Shown one piece after another: positions 29,866 to 43,312 of a stretch of 64,000 nucleotides of DNA (position 1 is its first letter; each line of letters starts with the position of its first letter). This stretch comes from an uncultured bacterium (GTDB lineage: Bacteria; UBP14; UBA6098). Made by a program: the position numbers and the translations under genes. The stretch spans positions 9,497 through 73,496 of the forward strand of contig CAZSHG010000010.1 in assembly GCA_964606695.1 (NCBI GenBank), written 5' to 3'. The notes beneath the pieces are model-generated. The model ran no database searches, was not told the DNA's origin, and worked only from the letters and a program-made list of their open reading frames with translations.

Positions 29866-30339
29866 TTATGTGCTTGCACGTTTGAGCTTTTCATCGACCA
29901 TTTTCTCGATCTTAGCGCGTTGCTTATCGGTAGGTTCGATAATATGGCGCACGAAATTGCATCTGAGATCCTGGCAGTATCTATCGAGTTCCTCCACCTG
30001 TTCGATTCTATCTTCGGGAGAATATCCCTGTTCGACGGACATCTCTCGAATAACACCCATTACATCCGCGAACTTGACGTTCTGTGGGCAACGGGCGTAA
30101 CAGACGTAGCATCTCTGGCACATCCAGATTATCTCGGAACTGAGAACGGCGTCGCGCATGCCGAAAATCGACATACGGATGATCTTGCGCGGGTCATAAT
30201 CGTCGTTGACCTCAGCTACGGGGCAACTTGCGGTGCAAGTTCCGCAGGTGAAGCACAGCTTGAAATTCTCCGCTCCCGGTCTCGAGGCTATCTCCTCTTT
30301 GAATTTCGGATCCTGTTCACTCAATACGATTGTATCCAT
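29866..30339 (-). CDS. hdrC: HdrC-like heterodisulfide reductase subunit C (2x[4Fe-4S])
   Basis: 157 aa. CFTCGTCTASCP ... DPRKIIRM ... IWMCQRCYVCYARCPQNV matches the HdrC layout. Confidence 0.75.
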   Translation of the reverse strand: MDTIVLSEQDPKFKEEIASRPGAENFKLCFTCGTCTASCPVAEVNDDYDPRKIIRMSIFGMRDAVLSSEIIWMCQRCYVCYARCPQNVKFADVMGVIREMSVEQGYSPEDRIEQVEELDRYCQDLRCNFVRHIIEPTDKQRAKIEKMVDEKLKRAST

Positions 30340-30355: not shown

Positions 30356-31189
30356 CTAAATCTCTTCGGGGATTTCTTCTATTTCCGCGAATGAAAACAC
30401 CGGGCCGTCGAAACACACGTATTTCGACCCGATATTACACCGTCCGCATTTGCCGATACCGCATTTCATACGCCTTTCAAGCGACGTATATATTCTATCG
30501 GGTGGAAAACCGAGTTCAGCGAGTGTCGGTAGCGTATATTTTATCATAATAGGCGGGCCGCAAAGCATGACCCACGTGTCTTTGGAGCTGGGTGAAATCT
30601 CCTTCGTTACGGTCGGCACGAAACCGACCATCTTGTCCCAGCCCTCGACTTCCTCGTCTATCGTGAGATGAACTGTGATATCGTTTTCCTTCTCCCAATC
30701 TTCGAGTTCGTCGCGATATATCATCAAACCCGGGCGTCGTGCGCCGTATATCATCGTGATATCGCCGTAATCGTTGCGATTGGCCTTGTCCCGAAGATAA
30801 ACGGTCAGCGAACGCAACGTCGTCAGTGCGAATCCGCCGCTGATTATTACGACGTTCTTGCCTTTGAATTCCTCTACGGGATAATAATTCCCCAGCGGCC
30901 CGCGGATGCCGATTACATCGCCCTCACGAAGGTGATGCAGTTCTGTCGTAACTACGCCGACACGGTTTACGGTGAAACGTAAAAAATCCCTTTCCGTGGG
31001 GGAGGAGGCTATTCCGAAAGGAGCTTCGCCGACGCCGGGAATCGATAACTGGCAGAACTGACCGGGTAGATAATCGAAGGCGTCTTCTTCGTTGACGAAT
31101 TCCAGGTCGAAAGTCCGCAGTGTCTTGTCGTCCGATTCGTTGCGGATGCTCTTAACTCGCACCGGGATGGGCATATATACGTTCTTCAT
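30356..31189 (-). CDS. FAD/NAD(P)-binding oxidoreductase with a C-terminal [2Fe-2S] (AsrB / sulfhydrogenase gamma / PyrK-NfnA-like)
   Basis: Ferredoxin-reductase-type fold (RTFDLEF..PGQF..., VIISGGFALTTL). C-terminal CGIGKCGRCNIGSKYVCFDGPVF. ATGA overlap with the upstream gene. Confidence 0.75.
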   Translation of the reverse strand: MKNVYMPIPVRVKSIRNESDDKTLRTFDLEFVNEEDAFDYLPGQFCQLSIPGVGEAPFGIASSPTERDFLRFTVNRVGVVTTELHHLREGDVIGIRGPLGNYYPVEEFKGKNVVIISGGFALTTLRSLTVYLRDKANRNDYGDITMIYGARRPGLMIYRDELEDWEKENDITVHLTIDEEVEGWDKMVGFVPTVTKEISPSSKDTWVMLCGPPIMIKYTLPTLAELGFPPDRIYTSLERRMKCGIGKCGRCNIGSKYVCFDGPVFSFAEIEEIPEEI

Positions 31190-32220
31190 ACCACAGCTCC
31201 TTCGGACTTTGCAGTTTCAATCGCCTTTGTCATAAACTCCCTGACATCGATGTTCACCGGGCATAGGCTTATACATCTTCCGCAACCGACGCATCCGAAC
31301 TCGCCCTGAGTTTCGACCATATAACTGAACTTATGCATGAACCTTTGCCTGAGCCGCGACATTTGCGACTTCCGTGGATTGTGTCCCGAACCTTCCTTCG
31401 TGAAAATCGGGAACTGGCAGGTGTCCCAGATTCGCAATCGCACGCCCTTACCGCGCCTGCTCTCATCCTGAATGTCGAAGCAATAGCAGGTGGGGCAGGA
31501 GAAGGTGCAAACAGCGCAACCGAGACATTTTGCCGTAACCTCGTCCCAGAAAGAATCGTCGAAAAGGGAATCCAGCGATGCCTTGAGCGGTTCCAGTTCG
31601 GGCGACTTCGCCATAGATTCGAGAGCCTTTTCTCCGATTGCCTCCGCCCTTTCGATATCGCCACTACAGGCCTTTTCGACGCTCTTCAATGAAGAAATCG
31701 CTTTCTCGCCGTTTTCCGTGATGGATTTGAGTATATAATCCTCTCCGATGTCGATAGCCAGCACGTCTGAACCGCTAACGTCGAAAGGCCCGCCGCCCAT
31801 CCAGTTGCAGAAACAGGAGGACAGCGGCAAGTTACAACCCAGAGATATTACCAGTGAATTCTCGCGTCTGGCCGCCCAGTAGAAATCCCTGTATTTGTCG
31901 TCGTCGAAGACGCGTTCGACGGTAACGAAACCCTTCGCGTCGCAAGGCCGGACTCCAAATATCCCTATAGGTTTGCCGGTATATTTATTCGATTTCGTGT
32001 CCTCTTTATCGAATCTGAGCATTACCTCGGTTTGCGGATAATATATTTCCTTTGGCGGTTTCCGCGTGCGAAGGAAGCTTGTATCCGGCGATTCGCCCTT
32101 ATCGAGCTTCTCGAAAGACGTTATCCCATCTCGTTCGACCGGCCCGTAAACCGAGTATTTTTCCGCGAGTTCCTCGATGAAGCCGTTCAGGTTTTTCTTT
32201 TTAAGTTTATATGTTTCCAT
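31186..32220 (-). CDS. AsrA / sulfhydrogenase-beta-like iron-sulfur protein
   Basis: VRPCDAKGF, CLGCAVCTFSCPTCYCFDIQDE and CVGCGRCISLCP. Paired with the AsrB-like gene by a 4-nt overlap. Confidence 0.65.
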   Translation of the reverse strand: METYKLKKKNLNGFIEELAEKYSVYGPVERDGITSFEKLDKGESPDTSFLRTRKPPKEIYYPQTEVMLRFDKEDTKSNKYTGKPIGIFGVRPCDAKGFVTVERVFDDDKYRDFYWAARRENSLVISLGCNLPLSSCFCNWMGGGPFDVSGSDVLAIDIGEDYILKSITENGEKAISSLKSVEKACSGDIERAEAIGEKALESMAKSPELEPLKASLDSLFDDSFWDEVTAKCLGCAVCTFSCPTCYCFDIQDESRRGKGVRLRIWDTCQFPIFTKEGSGHNPRKSQMSRLRQRFMHKFSYMVETQGEFGCVGCGRCISLCPVNIDVREFMTKAIETAKSEGAVV

Positions 32221-32280: not shown

Positions 32281-33237
32281 TCACAAAATAAACTCTTCGC
32301 TATCGTCCTCTTTGAAAGTGGCAAGCGCGGGCGGAGTTTCAAAATCCATACCCGCGACATAATCGAAGCGTTCAAGGACCTCTTTCTCGACACGTTTGCC
32401 CAGCAGACGGACATCTATATCGAGGGGACACGCTGACGCGCAAGCGCCGCAATCCACGCAACGTCCAGCCATGTGCAACGCACGGACTATATGATACACG
32501 AAATTGTCCGGCAGATTATTGCCCTTGCCGAGCCAGGCCGGCATTGACCTGTCGACAAAGCATTCTTCGCAGTAACACATCGGGCAGGCGTTTCTGCAGG
32601 CGTAACAGCGGATACAAGAGCTGTATTCAACCTCGAAATAAGCCCATCTCTCGTCGATAGGTTTACCCGCGAATTCCTCGATGTCCGCGAAATGTTCCTT
32701 CCCGCCGATCGGTTCCGCCGGCTCGCCGATGAAATGGTCATATTGGGGCGCATTTGGATGTTGGCATGTCAGGCAGTTATCCTGCAAAAGCTCGATTAAC
32801 GGCACTTTGCGCTCGAAATCGTCGCTTATCAATATTATATTATCGCCGTCGATTTTATAATCGGTCAGGTCGCCGTTGTCGGTTGCATCGCGCAACTTCT
32901 TCCTGTCGATGACTCCCTCGCAGGGGACACCGATGATAACTACCTTCTCGCGTGGGAATTGGTCTTCGACGACTATCTGCGTAATAGCCCTCGCGTCGCA
33001 ACCTCTGGCGACAACCCCTATCTTGCGCGGCCCGTCGGGGCGTTTTTTCTCGTCGTTGAGGTATTTGGCCAACGTATTAGCGCAGGTGAAATCGAAAATC
33101 AAGCCGTCCAGTTCCTCGATCGATTCGAAGAACCTCAAAGTTCCGCGCAGAGGGACACTACCCTTCTCGAAGCCGATAACGAGGTCGAGTTCCTCATCGG
33201 CGAATATCTTTTTTACACTATCGATTAGCTCGCTCAT
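32281..33237 (-). CDS. AsrA-family-like iron-sulfur protein (paralog)
   Basis: ARGCDARAI, CIRCYACRNACPMCYCEECFVD and CVDCGACASACP. The cysteine architecture matches 31186-32220, 37262-38344 and 38341-39510. Confidence 0.55.
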   Translation of the reverse strand: MSELIDSVKKIFADEELDLVIGFEKGSVPLRGTLRFFESIEELDGLIFDFTCANTLAKYLNDEKKRPDGPRKIGVVARGCDARAITQIVVEDQFPREKVVIIGVPCEGVIDRKKLRDATDNGDLTDYKIDGDNIILISDDFERKVPLIELLQDNCLTCQHPNAPQYDHFIGEPAEPIGGKEHFADIEEFAGKPIDERWAYFEVEYSSCIRCYACRNACPMCYCEECFVDRSMPAWLGKGNNLPDNFVYHIVRALHMAGRCVDCGACASACPLDIDVRLLGKRVEKEVLERFDYVAGMDFETPPALATFKEDDSEEFIL

Positions 33238-33246
33238 ATAAAATCC

Positions 33247-33690
33247 TTATAATTGATCGACGTTCTCGTAAAGCCCGGTTTTAACCATCTTTGTAGCCGG
33301 TCCAAGTTTGCGAACGGTCTCCGTTACGTGGGAAATCACCTTGGAGAATTTTTCGCCCTCTCCCGCGGATACCCACGAGAACTGGACTCTGTCCGGTTCG
33401 ATGCCGATGAATTCGAGCATCGTCTTTAGTATGGCAAATTTCCGCCGTGCCACATAATTCCCCGAAATGTAATGGCAATCCCCCGGATGGCATCCCGATA
33501 CCAACACGCCGTCGTAGCCGTCCTGAAGGCATTTCAGAATAAACATCGGATCGACTCTGCCCGAACAGGGCACACGTATCACACGTGTATTAGTCGGATA
33601 CTGGATGCGCGAAACCCCCGCCAGGTCGGCGCCCGCGTAAGAACACCAATTGCATAGAAAAGCCATTATTTTAGGTTCGAATTCGGCCAT
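33247..33690 (-). CDS. mvhD: MvhD/FlpD-like protein (methyl-viologen-reducing hydrogenase delta subunit family), copy 1
   Basis: FLCNWCSYAGADLAG...RVPCSGRVDP...GYDGVLVSGCHPGDCHYISGN. Confidence 0.85.
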   Translation of the reverse strand: MAEFEPKIMAFLCNWCSYAGADLAGVSRIQYPTNTRVIRVPCSGRVDPMFILKCLQDGYDGVLVSGCHPGDCHYISGNYVARRKFAILKTMLEFIGIEPDRVQFSWVSAGEGEKFSKVISHVTETVRKLGPATKMVKTGLYENVDQL

Positions 33691-33717
33691 AATTACCGCC
33701 GTTTCAAGCTATTGTTA

Positions 33718-36700
33718 CTATGTTGAATACTCCGCCGTTTCCAGAGCGTCTATCGCGTTGTAAATCTGTTGCGCCGTGAATCCCTTCAGATCGATTGCGC
33801 CGGATCTGCACGATGCCGCGCAGGCCCCGCAACCTTTGCACAGAGCTTCGTTAATAAACGCGACGCCTTTTTCCTCGTCCATCTGAGTTGCCGAATAAGC
33901 GCAGACATCGACACAGACGCCACATCCCGCGCAGAGATCCTGGTTTACCTCGCAAATCGAACCCTCGGCCTCAATAACCATCTTGCTCAGCACGGTCATA
34001 GCCCTCGCAGACGCCGCAGTCGCCTGAGTTATCGACTCTTCGCTGTTTTTCGGATTATGCGCGAGGCCGCAAACGAAAACCCCATCCGTGGCGAAATCTA
34101 CCGGGCGAAGTTTGACGTGCGCTTCCAGGAAGAACCTGTCCGCAGTCAACGGCACCTTCAGCATCTTAGCTATTGTCTCGTTGCTCTGCGGCGGATCTAT
34201 GGAAACCGCCAGAACCACGAGATCAGCCTCGACCCGGACGTTCTCGCCCAAAATCGGATCGAAGGTCGTAACCTTGAGTTTGCTGTTCGGGTTAGCCGGG
34301 TCGATTTGTTCGACGATCGGTTTATGGTCGAGGTCGTATCTGGAGAAAACGACGCCCAGATTACGGGCTTTTTCGTAATATTGCTCCTTCAACCCGTAAG
34401 AGCGGAGGTCGCGATAGAGGACATAGACGTTCGTCGGTGGGCGTTCTTCTTTTATTTTCAATGCGTTCTTAATCGCCTGCGGACAGCATATTCGACTGCA
34501 ATAATCGCGTCCCTCCTCGCGGGAATTCACGCAGTTAATCATCACTATATTATCGATCTTCTGGCCGTGCATATAGCCTTCGTCCAGCAATTTCTCGAAC
34601 TCCAGCTGGGTTACAACGCGGTTACTCGTGGGGTAATTGTATTCTTTTGTGGGATATTCCTCCGCGCCCGTAGCAACGATCACCACGCCGTGTTCGATTT
34701 CTCTCTCGCCTATTTCCGGTGTGAATAACTTCGATTTGAAATTTCCTATATAGCCGTCCACGAATTTGACTTCAGTATCCAGGAAAACCCCGATTCTCTC
34801 GTGTTTCATGACCCTGTCGATGGTTTCTTCGAGGAATTTAGCAGGATCTCTATCGCCTAATAGGAATTTAACTTTCTTGAATTTGCCGCCGAGTTCGCTT
34901 TCCTTTTCTACGAGATATACGTCGTAACCGGAATCGGCGATTTCCAGCGCTGATGTCATACCGGCCATTCCGCCGCCGATAACCAGAGCTTTCGGGTTGA
35001 TTTCCACAGGTAGTTTTTCGAGAGGCGTCAGTTTCCGCGCTTTGGCGATTCCCATCTCGACGAGTTCTTTTGCCTTCACGGTCGCCTTTTCGGGCTCTTG
35101 CATGTGCGCCCAACTGCATTGGTCGCGTATATTCGCCATCTCGAATAGATACTGGTTCAAGCCCGCCTCGCGGAGTGTTTCTCGGAAAAGAGGTTCGTGC
35201 GTTCTCGGCGTACAAGCCGCCACGAGTATGCGATTGAGGTCGTGCTCTTCGATGGCTTTCTTTATTGTTTCGAGACAATCGCCGGAACAGGCGTAAAGCA
35301 ATTCGTCAGCGTATTCGACGTTGGGCAATTTGCTGGCATATTCCACGACCGAAGGCACATCGACGATACCGCCGATGTTCGTTCCGCAATGACATATAAA
35401 AGCGCCGATTCGCGGCCTATCGCCTATGACATCCGCCTCGGGCGGGAATTCCTTTTTGGATATCTTCTCCTGCCTTTCCAGGCCGAGATATTTAACCGAC
35501 CTGGCTACTGCCGCCGATGCTCCCATAACCGATTCCGGAATGTCCTTCGGCCCGCTGTTCGCGCCGCACACGAAAACACCCGGTAGAGACGAATCCAGTG
35601 GCTCGAAATCCCCGGTTCTGCAGAAACCGAATTCGTCGAGCTTGATTCCGGCGTCTTTCGAGAGTTCGACTATTTCCTTTCTCGGTTCTATGCCCACGGA
35701 CAGCACGACCAGCGAGAAATCGCGCGTTTCCTTCGTGCCGTCGGGATTGGCGAAATGAAGCCGCAAATCGCCGTTGGGAAGCTCTTCCACCTCCGCCACG
35801 CGCGACCGAACGAAAGATACGCCGAACTGACCCTCGGCCTTTTCGTAATATTTATCGAACTCCTTGCCGAAGGCGCGGATATCCATGAAGAAAATGGTCG
35901 CGTCGAGACCCTTGATATGCTCTTTAGCGATGATAGCTTCCTTGATTGCATACATACAGCAGACCGAGGAGCAGTAGTTCTTACCGTTTTCTCTATCCCG
36001 CGACCCGACGCATTGGATAAACGCGACGTTTTCCGGTTCTTTATCGCCCTTGGGACACGTAACATGCCCCCTCTGAGGCCCTGAAGCGCAGAGCATCCTC
36101 TCGAATTCGAGCGAAGTAACCACGTTCGGGAATTTTTTGTAGCCATATTGGCCATATACTATAGGATCGAAGGCGTCGATGCCGGAGGCGATAATAACCG
36201 CCCCCGCCTCGATTTCATTGACCTCGTCTTTATCCTCGAAATTGATCGCGCCTGCGGGACAGGTCTTTTCGCAGATGCCGCAAACGCCCTTGTTTATCCG
36301 AAGGCAGTATTCCGGGTCGATAAGGTAGGTTGAAGGGACGCTCTGCAGAAAATAGCGGTATATCGCCTTGCGGTTGCGAAGCTCCATGTCGAATTCATCC
36401 AGGACTTTCGAGGGACACTTTTCCTCGCAAAGGCCGCACCCTATACATTTCACCGGATCGACGTAAGTCGCATGTTCCAGAATGGTGCAGGTGAAATTCC
36501 CCGGTTCGCCGTCGATGGATTTCAACTCGGAATTCATGTGAAGCGTGATTCCCGGGTGACGCGCGCATTCGCTCATCTTGGGCGACAGAATACACAGCGA
36601 ACAGTCGTTGGTGGGAAATGTTTTGTCGAGTTGCGCCATGCGTCCGCCGATAGAGGGTGTCTTTTCGACGATATGCACGTCCGCGCCAAGTTCGGCAAGG

Positions 36701-36765
36701 TCCAGCGATGCCTGTATTCCCGCGATTCCAGCGCCTATAACTATAATTGATTTGCTTTTAGCCAT
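33718..36765 (-). CDS. hdrA: 1015-aa fused double HdrA-family flavoprotein
   Basis: [78 protein letters not shown], second fold [38 protein letters not shown], and a C-terminal [12 protein letters not shown] / [11 protein letters not shown]. Confidence 0.85.
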   Translation of the reverse strand: [1015 protein letters not shown]

Positions 36766-36824
36766 CTTACAATTCCTATATGCTATTGTTTTCGCGATAT
36801 ATGAATTTCATAACTCATTGGTAA

Positions 36825-37262
36825 TTATAAAAATACCTCATCGGATATATTATTCGGTCCTAAGTCTTTTATTTTATCCGTATATTCGGTAATAACTTGA
36901 GCGAATCGAGGCCCTTCCGAAGCCGAAATCCACGAAAGGCGTATCCGGTCGCTTTCAAGCCCGAAGGTATCCAGGATTTTCTTCATCATGGCGAATCTAC
37001 GTCGGGTGTAGTAATTTCCCTTCTGGTAATGGCAATCCCCCGGATGGCAACCGCCCACCAGGACCGCATCCGCGCCGCGAAGAAGTGCAGTTAGAAGGAA
37101 TAAAGGATCCACGCGACTCGAACACATCACCCGAATAGGCAGTATCGACGGGGGATACTGAAGCCTGCTCGTGCCCGCCAGATCCGCGCCGGTATATGTG
37201 CACCAGTTGCACAGAAAACCTATAATTCTCGGCTCGAATTCCTCTTTTTTATCTTTTCCCAT
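36825..37262 (-). CDS. mvhD: MvhD/FlpD-like protein, copy 2
   Basis: I moved the start to the ATG at 37262 (TAATG overlap with the upstream stop), which gives MGKDKKEEFEPRIIGFLCNWCTYTGADLAG... The 110-codon R-rich extension in the track overlaps the upstream gene. Confidence 0.8.
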   Translation of the reverse strand: MGKDKKEEFEPRIIGFLCNWCTYTGADLAGTSRLQYPPSILPIRVMCSSRVDPLFLLTALLRGADAVLVGGCHPGDCHYQKGNYYTRRRFAMMKKILDTFGLESDRIRLSWISASEGPRFAQVITEYTDKIKDLGPNNISDEVFL

Positions 37263-38344
37263 TAATCCTCGACCTCCGTAAGCTCGTCCTCGATGAATGT
37301 CGAAAGCGGAACAGGTTCCTCCAAATCTGCGCCCGGAACGTAATCGAATACCTCCTGCACAGCATCGCCGACGCGCGTGAATATCGACGCTACCGGTATA
37401 TCCACAGGGCAGATATCGGCGCACATGCCGCAACCAACGCAGGATATGCTCATGTGCGCGATCCTCCCGAGATGGAAGAACACCGTATTCGGCGGGACTC
37501 GTAATCCGCCGCGTCTTACGAGTTCCTTCTCGAAAACGTCCGGTTTGTATTCGTTTTCCTTTGCGTCGAAAGCACATAGCGCGCAGTAACATATCGGGCA
37601 GACACTACTACAGCCGTGGCATCCGAGACATTTCCCGAAGGCTTCGACAAGCCCTTTGATCTCCATCTTTTCGAGTTCCAGTTCCGCGAAAACGCTTGCG
37701 CGCTTCGCCTCGCGAAGCTTCTTAAGCGGTTCTATTCGCGACTCGTCCAGTCCGCCCTCGGAGATTTCGCCGGAACCTGCAAGCAGATCCTCAGCGACGT
37801 CCGTGTTCAGATATAATTCGCAACCGGCTTTAGTCGGCAGGACTGTGATATCGGTGTTGAAAGGCACTAAATATTTACAAACCTCGCAAGTCGGCCTGAT
37901 TTTGGGCGGGTTTTCATTATTATAAAACGCCTTCCAGTAATCGGGGAGTGCGTTTTCGATTTCGCCGTTATTGTAGGTATCGAAATCAAGCACGCCACCA
38001 CAAACGGGGGAGATGAAAACCAGATTCTCTCTATTTCCGCTCTCGCGTTTCACCAGTTCGCCGAAAGCGCGTAATTCGCAAGGTTTTACCACGACCGCGA
38101 CCTTGTTTGGAAAAGCGCCGCCCGACGTCAATTCGGAAAGATAATTCGCGGCGTTTTCCGGCATGAAGGGCAGGCCGGGGCGAAGATCCTCGATTTTATC
38201 AGGATCCGCAATAAGGAGGTAATTCAGCGCATCGCCCAACTGCCCCAGGCCGAAGACAGCATCGACCTTCTTATTTTCGAGTAAGTTTTTCAGAATGTTT
38301 TTAAGTCCGGTATCGATATCGCTCTTTAGTTTTACTGTTTTCAT
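37262..38344 (-). CDS. AsrA-family-like iron-sulfur protein (paralog)
   Basis: I chose the ATG at 38344 (ATGA overlap with the upstream stop) instead of the TTG at 38350. VVVKPCELRAFGELV, CLGCHGCSSVCPICYCALCAFD and CVGCGMCADICP. Confidence 0.55.
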   Translation of the reverse strand: MKTVKLKSDIDTGLKNILKNLLENKKVDAVFGLGQLGDALNYLLIADPDKIEDLRPGLPFMPENAANYLSELTSGGAFPNKVAVVVKPCELRAFGELVKRESGNRENLVFISPVCGGVLDFDTYNNGEIENALPDYWKAFYNNENPPKIRPTCEVCKYLVPFNTDITVLPTKAGCELYLNTDVAEDLLAGSGEISEGGLDESRIEPLKKLREAKRASVFAELELEKMEIKGLVEAFGKCLGCHGCSSVCPICYCALCAFDAKENEYKPDVFEKELVRRGGLRVPPNTVFFHLGRIAHMSISCVGCGMCADICPVDIPVASIFTRVGDAVQEVFDYVPGADLEEPVPLSTFIEDELTEVED

Positions 38345-39510
38345 TTGCAATCACACCCTTTCAGAGGGTCGGTGCATATCCGTTCGATATCGCCGAGTTC
38401 CTTTTCCTTGCGGAAAACCCTCAACGGCAAGGGTTCATCAATATCCATACCGGGAGAATATTCGAACAACGCCTGGCTGTCTTCAGCGACAGCACTGAAT
38501 AACTCCGCCACCGGAATATCCACCGGGCAGGCGTCCTCACAACTTCCGCAGGAAACGCAGGACATGGTCATGTGCGACATCCGACCGAGATGGAACAGGA
38601 GAACGTCCTGCGAGAAGCGAATACTGCCCTTCTGCTCCGCGCGGGACATATATTGATCCTGTGAGAACTCGATAGCTTCCGACTCGAAGTAACATCTTCG
38701 GCAATAGCAAATCGGGCAGACGCTCATACAGTTGTGGCAGGAGACGCATTTCGAGAGAACCGAGGCAAGGTTATTCAAGCCGTTCGTTCGCTCTTTGATT
38801 TCGGCGTTCGCCTTATCTCTGGCCGCCTGGCGTTCGGTCTTGATCTTCTCGATTTCCTTCGCCCATTTTTCGGTGCCGGTATCGGGCTTCAGCCCGCTTT
38901 TTTCGAGGATTTCCTCGCCCTTTTGGCTGACCGGAATTACCATGTAATCGACGCCGAACCAACCGATATGCAGATCCGGTGAAGTTATAGCGAAATGCAC
39001 GCAGGATTTACACGTCGGACGCATGGTTTCGACGTCGTTAGCCTTCAAGGCTTCGACAAAAACCTTCTCGCCGTTCTCTGGATTATCGACATAATCCTGT
39101 ATCGGCAGTGCGCCCGGGCAGTCGATACTTATAAGAGTTATATTCTCGAGATCGACCTGCTTGAGTTTGGCCAGTTCGATAGCAGACCGAATCTCGCAGG
39201 GACGCAGGACAGCCGCGATCTTCTTCTTAGACGGGCCATGCTTGGTCAGGCTGGAAAGTGCTCTGCCGCCCTGAACAGTCATGATAGGGGGGAGGACGTT
39301 GGCCAGTTCGAGCAGTGATGGGTTTTCGACAAGCACCCAGGCGTAGGAATCGTTCGACGGGACTTTCAACGGCACGAAAACGGCGTCGAAAAGCCCGCCG
39401 TCGAGTCCGTCGCGGAGGATTTGCAGAACGCCCGCGTTCAGACCGTCCGGGGCGGATAATTTGGCCGCCTTCGAGGGCATCGTCGGTATTTCGTTTGACT
39501 TTGGTTTCAT
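38341..39510 (-). CDS. AsrA-family-like iron-sulfur protein (paralog)
   Basis: AVLRPCEIRSAIELA, CVSCHNCMSVCPICYCRRCYFE and CVSCGSCEDACP. Cys-rich C-terminal tail CTDPLKGCDCK. Confidence 0.55.
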   Translation of the reverse strand: MKPKSNEIPTMPSKAAKLSAPDGLNAGVLQILRDGLDGGLFDAVFVPLKVPSNDSYAWVLVENPSLLELANVLPPIMTVQGGRALSSLTKHGPSKKKIAAVLRPCEIRSAIELAKLKQVDLENITLISIDCPGALPIQDYVDNPENGEKVFVEALKANDVETMRPTCKSCVHFAITSPDLHIGWFGVDYMVIPVSQKGEEILEKSGLKPDTGTEKWAKEIEKIKTERQAARDKANAEIKERTNGLNNLASVLSKCVSCHNCMSVCPICYCRRCYFESEAIEFSQDQYMSRAEQKGSIRFSQDVLLFHLGRMSHMTMSCVSCGSCEDACPVDIPVAELFSAVAEDSQALFEYSPGMDIDEPLPLRVFRKEKELGDIERICTDPLKGCDCK

Positions 39511-39552
39511 ATATGCTCTTCGGTTTATTAAATTATCGCTTTCATGCTATAT

Positions 39553-41250
39553 TTATAAAGACGCAATCGCCTCGATTACTTCCTGATGTAACTGCTTCTC
39601 CGTGAAATGCTTGGAACGAATCGCGCCGGAGGGACAGCTTCCCACGCAATTGCCGCATCCACGGCAGATAGCCTCGTTGACGTTGGATACACGCCTTCCG
39701 GGATCGTAGGTAACCGCGCCGTAAGAGCACACTGTAACGCAAGTCTGGCACCCCGTGCACAAATCCTCGATTACTTCCGACGTCTTCACTTCGGGATGAA
39801 GCTTTTTCCCCGGAACGAGCCGAGCGAGTATATTGCCGCTCGCCGCAAGAGCCTGTCTGGACGAATCCACGATGCTCTTCGGCCCGTTGGCCGAGCCAAC
39901 CACGAAAACTCCCTCCACCGCCGTTTTAATCGATCCGATGATCGAGTGTTCTTCCTCGAAGAAACCGAATTTATCCACCGGCAAATCTATCATCTCGGCG
40001 ATTTTAGCCGTGTCAGGTCCGGGGATAATCGCGGAGGCGAGGATGACCATATCGACTTCGATTGTCTCCTCTTTCCCCGATTCAGATTTGAACGCTATCC
40101 CGACCTTGCCGGATTTGTCGGCGATTATTATATCATCCGCGAGGGAAAAAACGACGCCGTCGTCCTTCAATTGCTTTATATAAACCGATTCTGCAGGATT
40201 TGTTACCGATAAATTGCGATACAGGTCGTGAATTTTAATGTTGGGATATTTCTCTTTGAGCGTTCCGGCGATTTTCATCAAACCGTTGCAACAGACGCCG
40301 GAACAGTAACCGACCTTATCCCGACCCACGCAATGCACCAACGCTACCGACTTCGGATCCGAACCGTCGCTAAGTTTTATCCCACCGGATTTGCATTTCT
40401 CTTCGATTTCGGAAACCGTGAATACGTTATCGACTTTGCCGTATCCCCATCTGTCGTCGTCCGAGGGATTATATTCTGAAAAACCGGTTGCAATAACCAC
40501 CGAACCGACCTTGAGATCGGCCTTCTCGTCGCCAGGTTTATTCACGACGACCTCGAAATTCCCGAAGAAGCCAATTACGCTCTCGACCTCGCTCTCAAAG
40601 AGGATATCGATATTCTCGTTCTCCTCGACAGCCTTGATTTTATCAGCGATAGTATTGGGGGAAAGGTCGCCGTAGGGCAGGATGCATCCGAATTTCCCCG
40701 CGACGCCGCCCAATTCGCCGGTCTTCTCGACGAGATAGACCTTGCGTTGCACGGAAGCCATATTCAATGCCGACTGGATACCTGAGATTCCGCCGCCGAT
40801 AACCAGGACGTCCGGAGTGCTCTCCAGCTCCTTCTGTTCGAGGGACGAATGATAGATAACTCGCTTCACGCCCGCGCGAACGTAAGAGATGACTTTATCC
40901 GTTGCCGCTGTCTTGTCTTTTATCATCCACGCACACTGCTCGCGGATGTTGATTATCTGATATAAATAGGGATTTAGCCCGGCTTCCTTGCAGACGTTCG
41001 CGAAGGTAGTCTCGTGGTCCTTGGGCGAACACGCCGCTACTACAACGTGCGTGAGCTCCTCGTCGATAATGTCCTGATGAAGGAATTCTTTGCCTGCGCC
41101 CGAACACATAAGTTTGTGCTTCTTCACAACCGACACGTCCGGGTAATCGGAAACCGTCGCCATCACTCTATCGATATCGACCGCGTCGGCGATATTCGGG
41201 CCGCATTCGCAAATATAAACGCCTATTTTGTAATTACTCTCTGCCATCAT
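39553..41250 (-). CDS. hdrA: HdrA/QmoB-like flavoprotein (C-terminal-half type) with a 2x[4Fe-4S] ferredoxin domain
   Basis: GVYICECGPNIADAVD, VLVIGGGISGIQSA, HCVGRDKVGYCSGVCCNGLMK, CTGCQTCVTVCS and CRGCGNCVGSCPSGA. Collinear with the second halves of the 1015- and 1485-aa proteins. Confidence 0.8.
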   Translation of the reverse strand: MMAESNYKIGVYICECGPNIADAVDIDRVMATVSDYPDVSVVKKHKLMCSGAGKEFLHQDIIDEELTHVVVAACSPKDHETTFANVCKEAGLNPYLYQIINIREQCAWMIKDKTAATDKVISYVRAGVKRVIYHSSLEQKELESTPDVLVIGGGISGIQSALNMASVQRKVYLVEKTGELGGVAGKFGCILPYGDLSPNTIADKIKAVEENENIDILFESEVESVIGFFGNFEVVVNKPGDEKADLKVGSVVIATGFSEYNPSDDDRWGYGKVDNVFTVSEIEEKCKSGGIKLSDGSDPKSVALVHCVGRDKVGYCSGVCCNGLMKIAGTLKEKYPNIKIHDLYRNLSVTNPAESVYIKQLKDDGVVFSLADDIIIADKSGKVGIAFKSESGKEETIEVDMVILASAIIPGPDTAKIAEMIDLPVDKFGFFEEEHSIIGSIKTAVEGVFVVGSANGPKSIVDSSRQALAASGNILARLVPGKKLHPEVKTSEVIEDLCTGCQTCVTVCSYGAVTYDPGRRVSNVNEAICRGCGNCVGSCPSGAIRSKHFTEKQLHQEVIEAIASL

Positions 41251-41272
41251 TCTCCCGCTGGATAAGGAGTGT

Positions 41273-42559
41273 TTATTCGGTTATTAAAATCGGTTCACCA
41301 ACCTCTGATAATGCCTTGCCTACAGCTCCAGAAGCCTGCTCGATGCTGGCCGAAATATCCTTTGCGCCCTCGATACAGCCCGCGATATAGATTCCCTCTT
41401 TCGACGTGCTGACCGGGGTCAATTCCGATTTGTCAGATTTGATGAAACCCGTGTCCGCAATTTCGATTCCGAGCATTTCAGCCAGTTCCGCCGTGCCGTC
41501 ACGCGGGACAAGCATGGACGCGAGGATTACCATATCAACCTTAACTTCCGCTTTATCGCCGTTGACAGCGTATCTAACGACCGCGCCGTCACCGTCCGCC
41601 ACTACTTCGATATCGTCGAATCTCTGAAAATGGACGTTCGGTTCGAGAACCTCGTCGTAGAAGGCCTGATAATTCTTCCCCGGAATGAAGAGATCGTTGT
41701 AGAGATTGTGAATCTCCGCTTCCTCGATCTTGTGTTTTATATAATGTATGAACTTGACCGGATATAACGAACTCACGCCCGAACTATAGCCGTTAACCTC
41801 TTTACCGACATCGTGAATTACCGCGACGCTCTTCGGCGATTCGCCGTTGCGCAATGTCAATTCGCCCTGAGTGGGGCCGTTGGACGCGAAAAGCCGCTCG
41901 AATTCCATCGCGGAATAGACGCAATCGATTACACCGAGGCCATATTTAGCCTCGGTCGAGGCGTTGAACATCTGGAATCCGGTGCAGATGATAATTGCGC
42001 CGACCTCGATATCGACAGTCCTGTCTTCTTTATTATAATCGATCGCCTCGAACATGCAAGATTCCTGGCACAGCGTGCATTCCTCGCCCCTGGTGAACCT
42101 CAGGCAATTAGCCTTGTCGATTACAGGAACGTTTGGCAGTGCGCCCGGACACGGCACGAAAATCGCCTTCCTCTCTGAAAGGTTCTCCTCGAACGCGTTA
42201 GGGATGCTCACGGGGCACGGCTCGTAACACGCCCCGCATCCGATACAATCCACAGCGCTCACGTAATCCGCCTGCACGTTGATCTTCACGGAAAAATTCC
42301 CGATCTCGCCGGAAATCTTCGCAATCTCAGCCATCGTCAGCAGTTCGATATTCGGGTGCTGTAACAGCTCCTGTTGTTTGGGCGCGAGCATACAGGTCGA
42401 ACATTCCATATTCGGGAAAACCTCTTCGTATTTCACGAGATTCCCCCCGATCATCGAGGTCTTCTCGGCGATATAAACCTTCCTGCCCGAACCTGCCATT
42501 AGCAAAGCGGCTTCAATTCCGGTTATCCCGGCGCCGATAATTAATACGTCTTCTTTCAT
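41273..42559 (-). CDS. HdrA/QmoA-like flavoprotein (N-terminal-half type) that has lost the CxGxRD...CSxxCC cluster motif
   Basis: VLIIGAGITGIEAALLMAGSGRKVYIAE, FPNMECSTC and CIGCGACYEPCP. At the position of CVGSRD..YCSSVCCMY it reads HDVGKEVNGYSSGVSSLY. Confidence 0.75.
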   Translation of the reverse strand: MKEDVLIIGAGITGIEAALLMAGSGRKVYIAEKTSMIGGNLVKYEEVFPNMECSTCMLAPKQQELLQHPNIELLTMAEIAKISGEIGNFSVKINVQADYVSAVDCIGCGACYEPCPVSIPNAFEENLSERKAIFVPCPGALPNVPVIDKANCLRFTRGEECTLCQESCMFEAIDYNKEDRTVDIEVGAIIICTGFQMFNASTEAKYGLGVIDCVYSAMEFERLFASNGPTQGELTLRNGESPKSVAVIHDVGKEVNGYSSGVSSLYPVKFIHYIKHKIEEAEIHNLYNDLFIPGKNYQAFYDEVLEPNVHFQRFDDIEVVADGDGAVVRYAVNGDKAEVKVDMVILASMLVPRDGTAELAEMLGIEIADTGFIKSDKSELTPVSTSKEGIYIAGCIEGAKDISASIEQASGAVGKALSEVGEPILITE

Positions 42560-42590
42560 GATAAACTTTCTGATGTTGTAGTTCTTACTA

Positions 42591-43013
42591 TCAATAGGGC
42601 GTTTGCTTGAGGGGATTCGGCCCCAGTTCTTTTATCTTCGACGTGAACTGATTAACCACGTCGGCATATCTGCGCCCCTCGGCGGCGGATACCCACGCCA
42701 GCTCTACCCGATCCGGATCGATGTTCAGGCTCTCGAGAACCTTCTTGAGCTGAGCGAACCTTCTTCGGGTAAAATAGTTTCCCTCTTTGTAATGACAATC
42801 CCCCGGATGGCATCCCGCGACCAGAACGCCGTCCGCGCCCCAGAGCAGGGCGTTGAGAACCATACCCGGATCGACGCGGCTCGAACACATCACACGCGTT
42901 ACCGAAATCGACGGCGACACATCGAATTTGTTCGACCCGGCCAAATCCGCGCCAGTATAAGAACACCAGTTGCAAAGGAAGCCGACTATATTCGGCATGA
43001 ATTCGTCAGACAC
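42591..43013 (-). CDS. mvhD: MvhD/FlpD-like protein, copy 3
   Basis: GTG start preceded by aaggtg. MSDEFMPNIVGFLCNWCSYTGADLAG...RVMCSSRVDP...GADGVLVAGCHPGDCHYKEGN. Confidence 0.85.
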   Translation of the reverse strand: MSDEFMPNIVGFLCNWCSYTGADLAGSNKFDVSPSISVTRVMCSSRVDPGMVLNALLWGADGVLVAGCHPGDCHYKEGNYFTRRRFAQLKKVLESLNIDPDRVELAWVSAAEGRRYADVVNQFTSKIKELGPNPLKQTPY

Positions 43014-43087: not shown

Positions 43088-43312
43088 TTAAAACTGAATT
43101 TGCGCAGTGAATTTACCCGTTCCGTCGTCGTTACAGAACAGAAGGGTCTTGCCGGTCTTGCTTGCCCACGCCTTGACATCGTCGGGGAAAGAGTGACAGT
43201 CCGCGAGAACTTCCAGAACGTCGCCTGGTTGAAGATCCCGCGCCTCCGCGGCGACCTTCAATATAGGCTGGGGGCATTTTAGGCCGAGCGTGTCCAGTGT
43301 TTTCGTTGCCAT
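43088..43312 (-). CDS. tusA: TusA/SirA-family sulfur carrier, copy 2
   Basis: 74 aa. LDTLGLKCPQPILKVAAEARDLQPGD (CPxP motif). RBS aggagg. Confidence 0.85.
   Translation of the reverse strand: MATKTLDTLGLKCPQPILKVAAEARDLQPGDVLEVLADCHSFPDDVKAWASKTGKTLLFCNDDGTGKFTAQIQF

What the first reader, a model, noticed from the sequence alone, without database searches (positions are those of the whole stretch)
33247..43013. The same MvhD + double-HdrA unit occurs three times in three fusion states
Reading along the minus strand:
- mvhD (42591-43013) is followed by a split pair, 428 aa (N-half type) plus 565 aa (C-half type starting YICECGPNIADAVD).
- mvhD (36825-37262) is followed by the two halves fused into 1015 aa (...AFICHCGTNIGGIVD... 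in the middle).
- mvhD (33247-33690) heads the sub-block that ends with the 1485-aa version carrying the NfnB-like insertion.
The collinearity of the landmark motifs is visible directly. This is either a record of stepwise gene fusion within one locus, or three specialised bifurcation modules that assemble into a larger complex.
Basis: seen in the sequence. Interest (0 to 1): 0.65.

Follow-up and report, generated by a model that had tools for sequence, protein, structure and literature searches.

The report
Three different Hdr electron-transfer gene units
The three "MvhD plus double-HdrA" repeats are real, but they are three old, separately inherited electron-transfer gene units strung into one operon, and the first unit is consistently tied to sulfur-carrier (TusA) genes, which gives a testable clue to its unknown function.

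Summary
Three mvhD genes match Pfam FlpD (E 1e-51 to 1e-55). The 428+565 aa pair, the 1015 aa protein and the 1485 aa protein are collinear double HdrAs.

The division into three "MvhD + double HdrA" copies is wrong. Comparison with about 170 related loci gives three units:
- **Unit 1:** tusA-mvhD1-428-565-two FdhB-like genes-mvhD2. The second MvhD closes the unit in 35/35 loci and TusA heads it in 55/60. A double HdrA follows in only 7/30.
- **Unit 2:** the 1015 aa HdrA-mvhD3-Flx-like genes-HdrC-like gene. This unit stands alone in many phyla.
- **Unit 3:** a FrhB-like gene plus the 1485 aa HdrL-type protein. It has no MvhD of its own and its position varies between relatives.

Each form belongs to a large family with a stable architecture. 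On TrxR-core identity, the 1485 aa protein is closer to archaeal fused HdrAs than to the 1015 aa protein. The split pair groups apart from both halves of the fused proteins. In-locus stepwise fusion is therefore rejected.

Every pair shows the known complementary pattern of a pseudo-dimeric HdrA. Function remains inferred: flavin-based bifurcation linked to NAD(P)H and, for unit 1, probably to TusA-bound sulfur.

The parts
43088..43312 (-). tusA (74 aa, motif CPQP), the first gene of unit 1
   Evidence: Pfam TusA E 8e-18. A TusA gene lies directly upstream of the first mvhD in 55 of 60 related loci with room for it.
42591..43013 (-). mvhD1 (140 aa), MvhD/FlpD [2Fe-2S] adaptor at the 5' flank of unit 1
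   Evidence: Pfam FlpD E 4e-51. Five conserved Cys are visible in the sequence. Positional orthologues are 80-90% identical.
41273..42559 (-). HdrA N-type module (428 aa). It has the TrxR-like FAD core, the inserted ferredoxin domain and the ECSTC motif (Cys194/197 equivalents). It lacks the N-terminal domain and the C-terminal ferredoxin domain. The four Cys of the cluster next to FAD (HA4) are lost (D250, S259, S263, S264).
   Evidence: Aligns with PDB HdrA residues 142-558 (E 2e-84). Ligand alignment. The HA4 Cys are kept in 113 of 120 family members and lost only in the 7 closest relatives.
39553..41250 (-). HdrA C-type module (565 aa). It has the N-terminal cluster domain, the TrxR-like FAD core without the inserted ferredoxin domain, the HA4 Cys and the C-terminal 2x[4Fe-4S] ferredoxin domain. 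It lacks the DCxxC motif.
   Evidence: Aligns with PDB HdrA residues 12-244 and 323-650, skipping the inserted domain (E 1e-98). Alignment.
38341..39510 (-). FdhB-like Fe-S protein (389 aa), unit 1
   Evidence: Matches the PDB FdhB subunits of Fdh-Hdr complexes (9t1s_M E 5e-29, 8rvu_E, 7bkb_E). It is a paralogue of the next gene (33% identity, E 4e-66).
37262..38350 (-). FdhB-like Fe-S protein (362 aa), unit 1. Its stop codon overlaps the mvhD2 start by 1 nt.
   Evidence: Pfam FrhB_FdhB_C and dicluster hits. Paralogy. Coordinates.
36825..37262 (-). mvhD2 (145 aa), the last gene of unit 1
   Evidence: Pfam FlpD E 2e-53. A second MvhD follows the 362 aa-type gene in 35 of 35 loci, whether or not a double HdrA comes next. 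It is 63% identical to MvhD1.
33718..36765 (-). Fused double HdrA (1015 aa, 'type II'). The N-type module is about aa 1-440 (nt 35446-36765). The C-type module is about aa 441-1015 (nt 33721-35445). It is the first gene of unit 2.
   Evidence: PDB HdrA E 1e-205 with three matched stretches. Ligands. The family is found across bacteria and archaea.
33247..33690 (-). mvhD3 (147 aa), partner of the 1015 aa HdrA (FlxD-like)
   Evidence: Pfam FlpD E 3e-55. It is 70-72% identical to MvhDs that lie between a double HdrA and a 318 aa-type gene in other phyla, against 55-58% to MvhD1 and MvhD2.
32281..33237 (-). FdhB-like Fe-S protein (318 aa), in the FlxC-like position of unit 2
   Evidence: PDB FdhB 7bkb_E E 4e-27. 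Synteny.
31186..32220 (-). Sulfhydrogenase-beta/AsrA/FlxB-like Fe-S protein (344 aa)
   Evidence: Pfam Fer4_22 E 3e-32. NCBIfam ShyB E 2e-52. PDB 9nez_B E 1e-45.
30356..31189 (-). NAD(P)H/FAD/[2Fe-2S] protein (277 aa), HydG/AsrB/FlxA/NfnA-like
   Evidence: Pfam FAD_binding_6, NAD_binding_1 and DHODB_Fe-S_bind. NCBIfam PRK08345 E 2e-69.
29866..30339 (-). HdrC-like dicluster protein (157 aa), the last gene of unit 2
   Evidence: PDB HdrC E 1.5e-21. Pfam Fer4_8.
28732..29850 (-). FrhB-like flavin/Fe-S protein (372 aa), unit 3
   Evidence: Pfam FrhB_FdhB_N and _C (E 2e-39). PDB 8rja_E E 4e-47.
24211..28668 (-). HdrL-type protein (1485 aa): a type II double HdrA with a GltD/NfnB-like NAD(P)H module (about aa 160-635, nt about 26764-28191) inserted between the two cluster motifs of the inserted ferredoxin domain. 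Unit 3.
   Evidence: The family's top 120 members are mostly 1466-1560 aa.
18815..24193 (-). Linked sulfur-handling cassette: arsR (23921-24193), a second tusA (23562-23792), yeeE (22281-23492), rhodanese (21818-22330), rhodanese (20831-21787), porin (19685-20764), rhodanese (18815-19663)
   Evidence: Pfam hits. The same cassette lies next to the hdr array in Marinimicrobia, Cloacimonadota and other contigs.

Best explanation
The region belongs to one co-directional gene array on the minus strand (43312 to 24211). The array joins three evolutionarily separate Hdr-type electron-transfer units; it is not three copies of one unit.

- **Unit 1:** tusA-mvhD1-HdrA(N-type, 428)-HdrA(C-type, 565)-two FdhB-like Fe-S proteins-mvhD2.
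- **Unit 2:** fused double HdrA (1015)-mvhD3-FdhB-like/FlxC-like-FlxB-like-FlxA-like NAD(P)H flavoprotein-HdrC-like protein.
- **Unit 3:** FrhB-like protein plus an HdrL-type double HdrA that carries an inserted GltD/NfnB-like NAD(P)H module.

Shown from sequence. In each unit the two HdrA modules carry complementary halves of the accessory equipment of a canonical HdrA homodimer. The N-type module has the inserted ferredoxin domain and the DCxxC motif. The C-type module has the N-terminal cluster domain and the C-terminal ferredoxin domain.

Inferred by analogy with the HdrA and BamE structures. Each pair or fusion folds as a pseudo-twofold 'HdrA dimer' with a single complete electron path:
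1. Electrons enter from the MvhD [2Fe-2S] cluster into the C-terminal ferredoxin domain.
2. They pass to the N-terminal-domain cluster, which is completed by the Cys197 equivalent of the partner module.
3. They reach the FAD, where they split. One goes to the inserted ferredoxin domain (low potential: ferredoxin, or in HdrL the NAD(P)H module). The other goes through the cluster next to FAD to an HdrC-like exit (high potential).

Inferred for function. Unit 2 takes electrons from NAD(P)H through the Flx-like chain. Unit 3 exchanges electrons with NAD(P)H directly. Unit 1 works on or with TusA-bound sulfur delivered by the neighbouring rhodanese-porin-YeeE-TusA genes.
For: **One array.** Fifteen genes (mvhD1 to arsR) follow one another with gaps of 63 nt or less, or overlaps. 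tusA lies 74 nt upstream. Terminator-like sites are not enriched over shuffles; the only strong one on the minus strand lies between tusA and mvhD1.

**Complementary domains.** PDB mapping and the ligand alignment show the pattern. E356 and K409 equivalents are present in all six modules.

**Unit 1 boundaries** (83 loci):
- An upstream MvhD is present in 71 of 74 loci.
- TusA lies directly upstream in 55 of 60.
- A second MvhD follows in 35 of 35.
- A double HdrA follows in only 7 of 30.
- Unit 1 stands alone in L087 and L088.

**Unit 2.** The order double HdrA-MvhD-318-344-277(-157) recurs in Desulfobacterota, Chloroflexota, Archaeoglobi, a Nitrososphaeria MAG and Stahlbacteria. MvhD3 is 70-72% identical to those MvhDs.

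**Unit 3 is variable.** NuoE/F-like genes plus a 1080 aa protein replace it in Zixibacteria. The sulfur cassette separates it in Cloacimonadota. A kinase and response regulator separate it in L001.

**The paralogues are old**.

**The whole array is conserved** in Marinimicrobia and in L086.

**TusA is specific to unit 1.** Only 1 of 79 control loci holding a type II HdrA has any TusA, and none has YeeE or a rhodanese.

**Literature.** The complementarity rule for tandem and fused HdrA is in PMC9012536. BamE is described as a fused HdrA dimer with one bifurcating FAD in bioRxiv 10.64898/2026.04.10.717634.
Against: - No biochemical or expression data exist for this array. Only a DNA metagenome from a microbial mat holds it.
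- The array encodes no HdrB or CCG-domain protein, so the high-potential acceptor is unknown.
- The 428 aa module has lost the cluster next to FAD, which is the usual high-potential exit. The BamE-type path cannot apply unchanged to unit 1 in this lineage.
- Unit 1 has two MvhDs and two FdhB-like proteins, but by analogy only one MvhD entry path. Its stoichiometry is unexplained.
- All six modules keep K409 and E356, so sequence does not show which FAD bifurcates.
- The trees are neighbour-joining on about 340 columns. The grouping of the two split-pair cores (76-93%) could owe something to long-branch attraction.
- Conserved order of all three units in several phyla would also fit a supercomplex.
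Confidence: 0.7

Rival explanations
1. Record of stepwise fusion. One ancestral mvhD + hdrA + hdrA unit was duplicated twice within this locus. The copies were then fused (1015 aa) and extended by a GltD insertion (1485 aa), so the locus preserves the intermediate stages.
For: The three forms are collinear and sit in one operon. The published phylogeny of archaeal HdrA derives type II from fusion of A6-like and A12-like single HdrAs (PMC12054007).
Against: - Identity between the split pair and the fused form is only 33-35%, while each form has relatives of 52-82% identity in other phyla with the same architecture.
- The 1485 aa protein's modules are closer to archaeal fused HdrAs than to the 1015 aa protein.
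- The split pair's cores and its N-terminal domain fall outside the type II N and C clades.
- The MvhD tree is incongruent with the proposed pairing.
- The units occur separately elsewhere.
Confidence: 0.03
2. One supercomplex. The products of all three units, or at least of units 1 and 2, assemble into a single multi-flavin machine that couples several bifurcation or confurcation events, as the Bam complex couples two such modules.
For: Gene order from tusA/mvhD1 to the HdrC-like gene is kept in the window, L001, Zixibacteria, Marinimicrobia, Cloacimonadota and L086. Spacing is tight and some genes overlap. Unit 1 encodes no recognised substrate-level electron-input enzyme of its own, whereas unit 2 carries an NAD(P)H module.
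Against: Unit 1 is followed by a double HdrA in only 7 of 30 loci. It is otherwise autonomous or sits next to a sulfhydrogenase-like [NiFe] hydrogenase. Unit 2 is autonomous in many phyla. Unit 3 is replaced or displaced in close relatives.
Confidence: 0.2
3. Nfn-like transhydrogenase array. With no HdrB, the array mainly shuttles electrons among NADH, NADPH and ferredoxin. It would use the NfnA-like 277 aa protein and the NfnB-like insert of the 1485 aa protein. The sulfur genes would be neighbours only by chance.
For: Two separate NAD(P)H-type modules are present. No CCG-domain protein is encoded. The insert's nucleotide motif reads GGGNVS (sequence), so cofactor preference is open.
Against: The link between TusA and unit 1 is strong and specific (55/60 against 1/79). 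The YeeE/rhodanese cassette travels with the array in at least four lineages, though in different positions. The NfnA-like and NfnB-like parts are not adjacent, and each sits in its own unit.
Confidence: 0.1

Closest known systems
BamE/BamF of the class II benzoyl-CoA reductase of Geobacter metallireducens (cryo-EM preprint 10.64898/2026.04.10.717634)
   Same: BamE is a single polypeptide formed by a fused HdrA dimer, with two TrxR-like FAD domains and one set of accessory Fe-S domains. It is fed by an MvhD-type adaptor. The 1015 aa protein has the same kind of build: two FAD sites and ligands for seven [4Fe-4S] clusters.
   Different: No BamB, BamC (tungsten enzyme), BamD (HdrBC-like) or BamGHI genes are here. 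MvhD3 is a short 147 aa MvhD without selenocysteine, unlike the long BamF. Both FAD sites keep the Lys409 equivalent, whereas BamE's second FAD has Gln.
HdrA classes of methane-metabolising archaea: type I A6 and A12, type II, type III (PMC12054007), and the tandem or fused HdrA of ANME (PMC9012536)
   Same: The 428 aa protein has the A6 domain pattern, the 565 aa protein resembles A12, the 1015 aa protein is type II, and the GltD insertion is the type III feature. The complementarity between the N-terminal domain and Cys197 described for tandem and fused HdrA holds in all three units.
   Different: This is a bacterial operon. The 1485 aa protein combines type II with the GltD insert. The split pair here is a lineage outside the type II N and C clades, whereas other split pairs fall inside them. 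It is also TusA-linked, which the control type II loci are not. In the ANME fusions HdrA3 and HdrA4 described in PMC9012536 the module order is the reverse.
FlxABCD-HdrABC of Desulfovibrio vulgaris (Ramos et al. 2015, cited in PMC5947623) and Hdr/Flox clusters
   Same: Unit 2 has an NAD(P)H/FAD/[2Fe-2S] protein, two Fe-S proteins, an MvhD (FlxD), an HdrA and an HdrC-like protein.
   Different: HdrA is the fused double type and no HdrB is encoded. The identification of the Flx subunits rests on domain content and my recollection of the Flx description, not on direct comparison with the D. vulgaris sequences.
HdrL of Desulfobacterium autotrophicum (PMC2702500) and Syntrophobacter fumaroxidans (PMC5947623)
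   Same: It is a large HdrA/glutamate-synthase-type fusion with an NAD(P)H-binding module, soluble, and associated with Fe-S proteins.
   Different: In D. autotrophicum every hdrL is followed by an mvhD. Here the 1485 aa gene is followed by arsR. No selenocysteine codon interrupts it.
Sulfur-oxidising sHdr-LbpA system with TusA, DsrE and rhodanese (PMC11094781)
   Same: An Hdr-like flavoprotein system that is consistently accompanied by TusA, DsrE and rhodanese sulfur transferases.
   Different: From my knowledge of the system, sHdr has HdrB1/B2 and HdrC1/C2, a minimal HdrA and lipoate-binding proteins. None of HdrB or LbpA is encoded here. sHdr also lacks MvhD and FdhB-like proteins.

Membership tests
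MvhD/FlpD (PF02662) | Full-length match to the FlpD model above the curated cut-off | tested here: met
   Scores of 172.6, 180.3 and 186.2 bits against a cut-off of 22.3, covering profile positions 1-123.
MvhD/FlpD (PF02662) | Conserved Cys set for the [2Fe-2S] cluster, plus the extra Cys near it | tested here: met
   All three proteins have CNWC...C...GCHPGDC, five Cys in all (sequences). Assigning these as ligands rests on knowledge of the MvhD structure.
HdrA (flavin-based bifurcating TrxR-like flavoprotein) | TrxR-like FAD domain with GxGxxG and the E356 and K409 equivalents | tested here: met
   Present in all six modules. K and E are invariant in 120 of 120 members of the 428 aa family.
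HdrA (flavin-based bifurcating TrxR-like flavoprotein) | [4Fe-4S] cluster next to FAD (HA4; Cys386, Cys399, Cys403, Cys404) | tested here: inconclusive
   Present in five modules. Absent from the 428 aa protein (D/S/S/S), as a recent loss confined to its 7 closest relatives.
Heterodimeric or fused 'double' HdrA (type II; tandem A6 + A12) | Complementarity: one module has the N-terminal cluster domain and lacks Cys197; the other has Cys197 and lacks the N-terminal domain | tested here: met
   It holds for 428/565, for both halves of the 1015 aa protein and for both halves of the 1485 aa protein. The rule comes from PMC9012536.
Heterodimeric or fused 'double' HdrA (type II; tandem A6 + A12) | Phylogenetic placement of the two cores in the type II N and type II C clades | tested here: inconclusive
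   Met for the 1015 and 1485 aa proteins (clades at 100% and 90%). Not met for the 428/565 pair, whose cores group together outside both clades (76-93%). These are neighbour-joining trees only.
HdrL / type III HdrA (GltD insertion) | A GltD/NfnB-like FAD/NAD(P)H module inserted in the ferredoxin domain of HdrA | tested here: met
   Fer4_20 + Pyr_redox_2 at aa 160-565. PRK12771 E 9e-160. The insert is flanked by the two cluster motifs.
HdrL / type III HdrA (GltD insertion) | An mvhD directly downstream, as in D. autotrophicum | tested here: not met
   The next gene is arsR at 23921-24193.
FlxABCD-HdrABC | FlxA-like NAD(P)H flavoprotein, two Fe-S proteins, and FlxD (MvhD) next to hdrA | tested here: met
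   The 277, 344 and 318 aa proteins and MvhD3, by domain content. They were not compared directly with the D. vulgaris proteins.
FlxABCD-HdrABC | HdrB (CCG domains) and HdrC present | tested here: not met
   An HdrC-like 157 aa protein is present. No CCG-domain protein is found among the array's genes.
Class II benzoyl-CoA reductase (BamB-I) | BamB/BamC tungsten module, BamD (HdrBC-like) and BamGHI next to BamE/BamF | tested here: not met
   None of these is among the array's genes.
sHdr sulfur-oxidation system | HdrB1/B2 and HdrC1/C2 with a lipoate-binding protein | tested here: not met
   No CCG-domain gene is in the array. Only the accompanying sulfur transferases are shared.
QmoABC | QmoA and QmoB HdrA paralogues together with membrane QmoC, next to aprAB | tested here: not met
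   No membrane Hdr-like subunit and no apr genes appear among the genes examined between 18.8 and 49.4 kb. The defining features are from my own knowledge.

The most novel reading that the evidence does not exclude
Unit 1 (tusA-mvhD-HdrA_N-HdrA_C-two FdhB-like genes-mvhD) is an uncharacterised, HdrB-independent Hdr-type enzyme. Its 'heterodisulfide' would be sulfane sulfur carried on TusA. Sulfur imported by the rhodanese-porin-YeeE-TusA cassette would be reduced (or oxidised) at the FAD/CxxC site of a pseudo-dimeric HdrA. That reaction would be coupled to ferredoxin and to NAD(P)H or H2 through neighbouring Flx-type, HdrL-type or sulfhydrogenase-like modules. This would add a widespread cytoplasmic route of sulfur-dependent energy metabolism in uncultured anaerobes (Cloacimonadota, Marinimicrobia, Zixibacteria, WOR-3, Thermoplasmatales).
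Probability: 0.25. Interest if true: 0.75.

Novelty: new variant of a known kind. Interest (0 to 1): 0.5.

Why it matters
HdrA-based electron bifurcation is central to anaerobic energy conservation. Outside methanogens and the Bam complex, the partners and acceptors of most bacterial HdrA homologues are unknown.

This locus shows that what looks like a repeat is a mosaic of three separable units. That changes how such clusters should be annotated, in particular which MvhD belongs to which HdrA.

It also singles out one unit with a clear and specific genomic link to the sulfur carrier TusA and to a sulfur import cassette: 55/60 loci against 1/79 controls. That gives a concrete substrate hypothesis for a family with about 1,400 database relatives (E <= 1e-40), and it can be tested by expressing seven genes.

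The independent lineage of the split pair would also be a case of convergent evolution of an asymmetric HdrA 'dimer'.

Tried and rejected
- **Bam, Qmo and sHdr membership:** considered and rejected because the defining partner genes are absent.
- **Loss of the FAD-adjacent cluster as a trait of the 428 aa family:** rejected. It is restricted to the 7 closest relatives.
- **Expression data:** only three DNA runs from a microbial-mat metagenome came up, and only one holds the sequence. No RNA runs, so co-transcription could not be checked.
- **Promoter and terminator scan:** site counts were not above shuffled controls. The only strong hairpin lies between tusA and mvhD1.
- **Literature:** searches for a description of the TusA-headed unit or of the three-unit array found only generic mentions of hdr genes in these phyla. 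The BBA review by Appel et al. 2021 is not in the library and was not read.
- **Genome-collection scan with the 1015 aa family:** Close relatives had to be reached through exact-protein look-ups and a metagenome scan.
- **Structure prediction:** not run. The tools fold single chains and return no coordinates, so the key question (inter-module cluster ligation, MvhD docking) could not be answered.
- **Flx subunits:** not compared directly with the D. vulgaris sequences.

Full report
**1. What is in the sequence**

A co-directional run of genes lies on the minus strand with gaps of 63 nt or less, or small overlaps:

| Gene | Coordinates |
|---|---|
| mvhD1 | 43013-42591 |
| 428 aa HdrA-like | 42559-41273 |
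| 565 aa HdrA-like | 41250-39553 |
| 389 aa Fe-S protein | 39510-38341 |
| 362 aa Fe-S protein | 38350-37262 |
| mvhD2 | 37262-36825 |
| 1015 aa HdrA-like | 36765-33718 |
| mvhD3 | 33690-33247 |
| 318 aa protein | 33237-32281 |
| 344 aa protein | 32220-31186 |
| 277 aa protein | 31189-30356 |
| 157 aa protein | 30339-29866 |
| 372 aa protein | 29850-28732 |
| 1485 aa HdrA-like | 28668-24211 |
| arsR | 24193-23921 |

- The three small proteins match Pfam FlpD (MvhD) over the full model, with E 4e-51 to 3e-55.
The 428 aa protein aligns with residues 5-428 of the 1015 aa protein (33%, E 3e-73). The 565 aa protein aligns with residues 452-1005 (35%, E 1e-98).
- The 1015 and 1485 aa proteins are 49-52% identical end to end, apart from an insert of about 465 aa in the longer one. 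The insert matches GltD/NfnB-type models.
- So the genes, coordinates and motifs are right and cannot be chance.

**2. Domain anatomy**

I mapped the proteins on solved HdrA structures and aligned the six modules with two canonical HdrAs.

- The 'N-half' type covers the 428 aa protein, residues 1-440 of the 1015 aa protein and the N part of the 1485 aa protein. It is an HdrA that starts at the TrxR-like FAD domain. It keeps the inserted ferredoxin domain and the DCxxC motif (Cys194/Cys197 of the Methanothermococcus enzyme). It lacks the N-terminal cluster domain and the C-terminal ferredoxin domain.
- The 'C-half' type is the mirror image.
- All six modules keep GxGxxG and the E356 and K409 equivalents.
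- This is the complementarity described for tandem and fused HdrAs of ANME archaea and for Moorella (PMC9012536). It is now seen structurally in BamE, 'a fused HdrA dimer' with one bifurcating and one non-bifurcating FAD (bioRxiv 10.64898/2026.04.10.717634).
- In the typology of PMC12054007, the 428 aa protein has the A6 pattern, the 565 aa protein resembles A12, and the 1015 aa protein is type II. The 1485 aa protein is type II plus the GltD insertion that defines type III and HdrL.
- The insert sits between the two cluster motifs of the inserted ferredoxin domain.
- One peculiarity: the 428 aa protein has lost all four Cys of the cluster next to FAD. Within its family this loss is confined to the 7 closest relatives out of 120.

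**3.

I collected related loci in three ways: exact-protein look-ups, a scan of species genomes with the 1015 aa family and a metagenome scan with the 428 aa family. I annotated them against the window's proteins.

*mvhD1 and mvhD2 both belong to the split pair.* Among 83 loci with a 428 aa-type gene:
- An MvhD precedes it in 71 of 74 loci with room.
- The 565-type, 389-type and 362-type genes follow.
- A second MvhD closes the series in 35 of 35.
- A double HdrA comes next in only 7 of 30. In 4 others the next gene is a sulfhydrogenase beta/gamma-like fusion, which in L088 is followed by [NiFe]-hydrogenase subunit genes.
- This unit stands alone in L087 and in the Thermoplasmatales MAG L088.

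*mvhD3 belongs to the 1015 aa gene upstream of it.*
- The order double HdrA-MvhD-318-344-277(-157) recurs without any split pair in Desulfobacterota, Chloroflexota, Archaeoglobi, a Nitrososphaeria MAG and Stahlbacteria.
- MvhD3 is 70-72% identical to those MvhDs, against 55-58% to MvhD1 and MvhD2.

*The 1485 aa gene travels with the FrhB-like gene, has no MvhD of its own here, and is the variable part.*
- Zixibacteria carry NuoE/F-like genes and a 1080 aa protein in its place.
- In a Cloacimonadota contig a sulfur cassette separates it from unit 2.
- In L001 a kinase domain and a response regulator intervene.

The complete three-unit array does recur in Marinimicrobia and L086.

**4. Age and relationships**

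- Each form belongs to a large family with constant architecture. The top 120 relatives of the 1015 aa protein are almost all 1000-1060 aa (56-82% identity). Those of the 428 aa protein are 417-433 aa (52-71%; 1419 hits at E <= 1e-40). Those of the 1485 aa protein are mostly 1466-1560 aa, with some of about 1650 aa, some of which carry a fused MvhD domain (52-73%).
- In neighbour-joining trees of about 340 TrxR-core columns (148 and 170 modules, 100 bootstraps), all type II C halves plus the C-type split proteins of other lineages form one clade (99-100%). All type II N halves plus the N-type split proteins of other lineages form another (88-90%).
- The window's 1015 and 1485 aa proteins fall inside these clades. 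However, the 1485 aa protein's modules are nearer to fused HdrAs of Thermoplasmatales and Bathyarchaeia (59-63%) than to the 1015 aa protein (54/51%).
- The window-type split pair behaves differently. Its N-type and C-type cores group with each other outside both clades (93%, or 76% with denser sampling).
- The N-terminal domain of the 565 aa type is more like that of canonical HdrA (42%) than that of type II C halves (36%). Type II C halves and the C-type split proteins of other lineages are 60% alike.
- So the 428+565 pair is not the unfused precursor of the neighbouring fused gene. It looks like an independent lineage that reached the same asymmetric design. The caveat is that these are simple distance trees and long-branch effects are possible.
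- Within unit 1, MvhD1/MvhD2 (63%) and the 389/362 aa proteins (33%) are each other's closest paralogues in the array, and the 428/565 cores group together in the trees. The unit therefore has an internal pseudo-twofold make-up.

**5. The other genes**

- The 389 and 318 aa proteins match the FdhB subunits that dock formate dehydrogenase to MvhD/HdrA in solved Fdh-Hdr complexes (E 4e-27 to 5e-29 for the best hits). The 362 aa protein is their paralogue.
- The 344 aa protein matches sulfhydrogenase beta/AsrA (PDB 9nez_B E 1e-45).
- The 277 aa protein is an NAD(P)H/FAD/[2Fe-2S] protein of the HydG/AsrB/PyrK kind.
- The 157 aa protein is HdrC-like (E 1.5e-21).
- The 372 aa protein is a full FrhB-type flavoprotein.
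- Unit 2 thus has the content of a Flx-Hdr cluster, with a fused HdrA and without HdrB. No CCG-domain protein is encoded anywhere in the array.

**6.

- A 74 aa TusA gene (43312-43088, CPQP motif, Pfam E 8e-18) lies 74 nt upstream of mvhD1.
- Downstream of the 1485 aa gene come arsR, a second tusA (E 1.5e-27), yeeE, three rhodaneses and a porin.
- TusA directly precedes the first mvhD of unit 1 in 55 of 60 loci. YeeE and a rhodanese lie just upstream of that TusA in 13 and 14 of 24 loci with room.
- The cassette keeps company with the array in Marinimicrobia, Cloacimonadota and L086, although its position differs: upstream, inserted or downstream.
- As a control, 79 type II HdrA loci from other phyla contain one TusA and no YeeE or rhodanese. 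The association is specific to unit 1.
- A similar rhodanese-porin-YeeE arrangement has been read as a sulfur import route in Desulfurivibrio (PMC12142623).

**7. How it most likely works**

Shown: the gene content, cofactor ligands, unit boundaries, conservation and the TusA link.

Inferred by analogy with the HdrA and BamE structures (the electron path in canonical HdrA is partly from my own knowledge of the 2017 structure):
- Each pair or fusion forms a pseudo-dimer with one complete path. Electrons go from the MvhD [2Fe-2S] cluster to the C-terminal ferredoxin domain, then to the N-terminal-domain cluster completed by the partner's Cys197 equivalent, then to FAD.
- From FAD they split between the inserted ferredoxin domain (low potential) and the FAD-adjacent cluster leading to an HdrC-type exit (high potential).
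- Unit 2 would be fed by NAD(P)H through the 277, 344 and 318 aa proteins and MvhD3.
- In unit 3 the GltD module replaces or blocks the ferredoxin site and exchanges electrons with NAD(P)H, as proposed for type III HdrA.
- Unit 1 would act on TusA-bound sulfur.

Open points:
- the high-potential acceptor, given that there is no HdrB;
- the role of two MvhDs and two FdhB-like proteins in unit 1;
- the consequence of losing the FAD-adjacent cluster in the 428 aa protein;
- which FAD bifurcates, since all keep Lys and Glu.

**8. Verdict**

The genes and the collinearity are real; 'one unit three times' is not.
- In-locus stepwise fusion is rejected. 'Three specialised modules' is right in spirit, but assembly into one complex is unproven, and the fact that the units occur separately elsewhere argues against it.
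- All protein types are known kinds. What I did not find described in the searchable literature is the TusA-headed unit 1 with its paired MvhDs and FdhB-like proteins, its separate lineage, and its recurrent combination with Flx-type II HdrA and HdrL units next to a sulfur import cassette.
- The window's DNA is found in a microbial-mat metagenome. The closest relatives are unnamed metagenomic contigs, and named ones at 58-68% identity include WOR-3, Zixibacteria, Cloacimonadota and Marinimicrobia.

Noticed in passing
window 43053-43078 (minus strand): This is the strongest terminator-like hairpin of the region: an 11 bp stem followed by a T-rich tail. It lies between tusA and mvhD1. It could be an attenuator or a transcript-stabilising element between the sulfur carrier gene and the hdr genes.
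   Followed up: no
window 41273-42559 (428 aa protein, residues 250, 259, 263, 264): All four Cys of the [4Fe-4S] cluster next to FAD are replaced (D, S, S, S). The loss occurs only in the 7 closest relatives (67% identity or more) of the 120 family members checked.
   Followed up: partly
window 18815-24193: An arsR-tusA-yeeE-rhodanese-rhodanese-porin-rhodanese cassette lies directly downstream of the hdr array. The 170 aa rhodanese may carry a lipoprotein-type signal (Cys after a hydrophobic stretch). The whole looks like a sulfur import route from outside the cell to cytoplasmic TusA.
   Followed up: partly
L088 6666-11181; also L107, L108, L109, L145, L165: In several contigs unit 1 is followed by a 646-649 aa fusion of sulfhydrogenase beta-like and gamma-like parts. 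In L088 the small and large [NiFe]-hydrogenase subunit genes and a maturation protease come next. This suggests H2 as an alternative electron partner of unit 1.
   Followed up: no
L002/L003 16951-22877 (Zixibacteria): In place of the FrhB-like and HdrL genes there are NuoE-like and NuoF-like genes and a 1080 aa protein with Fer2_4, ferredoxin and Pyr_redox_2 domains. This is a different NADH-linked module at the same position.
   Followed up: no
L001 16907-19355: In the closest full-length relative, the FrhB-like protein is fused to a histidine-kinase ATPase domain (675 aa). A response regulator follows, before the HdrL gene.
   Followed up: no
L102, L120, L123, L124, L127, L130, L131, L143 (upstream of unit 1 or of its TusA-YeeE-rhodanese cassette): Many unit 1 loci also carry a 332-362 aa protein containing an MvhD domain, just upstream of unit 1 or of the sulfur cassette. 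The window has no counterpart.
   Followed up: no
Proteins P0052, P0330 and P0355: Some family members of the 1015 aa and 1485 aa types carry a fused MvhD (PF02662) domain. More fusion states therefore exist in nature than the three seen here.
   Followed up: no
window 24211-28668 (1485 aa protein, about residue 388): The second nucleotide-binding motif of the GltD-like insert reads GGGNVS. It is neither the GxGxxG nor the GxGxxA form discussed for NAD versus NADP preference, so cofactor specificity is open.
   Followed up: no
window 10542-17912 and 51143-60597: Very large minus-strand ORFs (2456, 2229 and 925 aa) flank the region. They were not examined.
   Followed up: no
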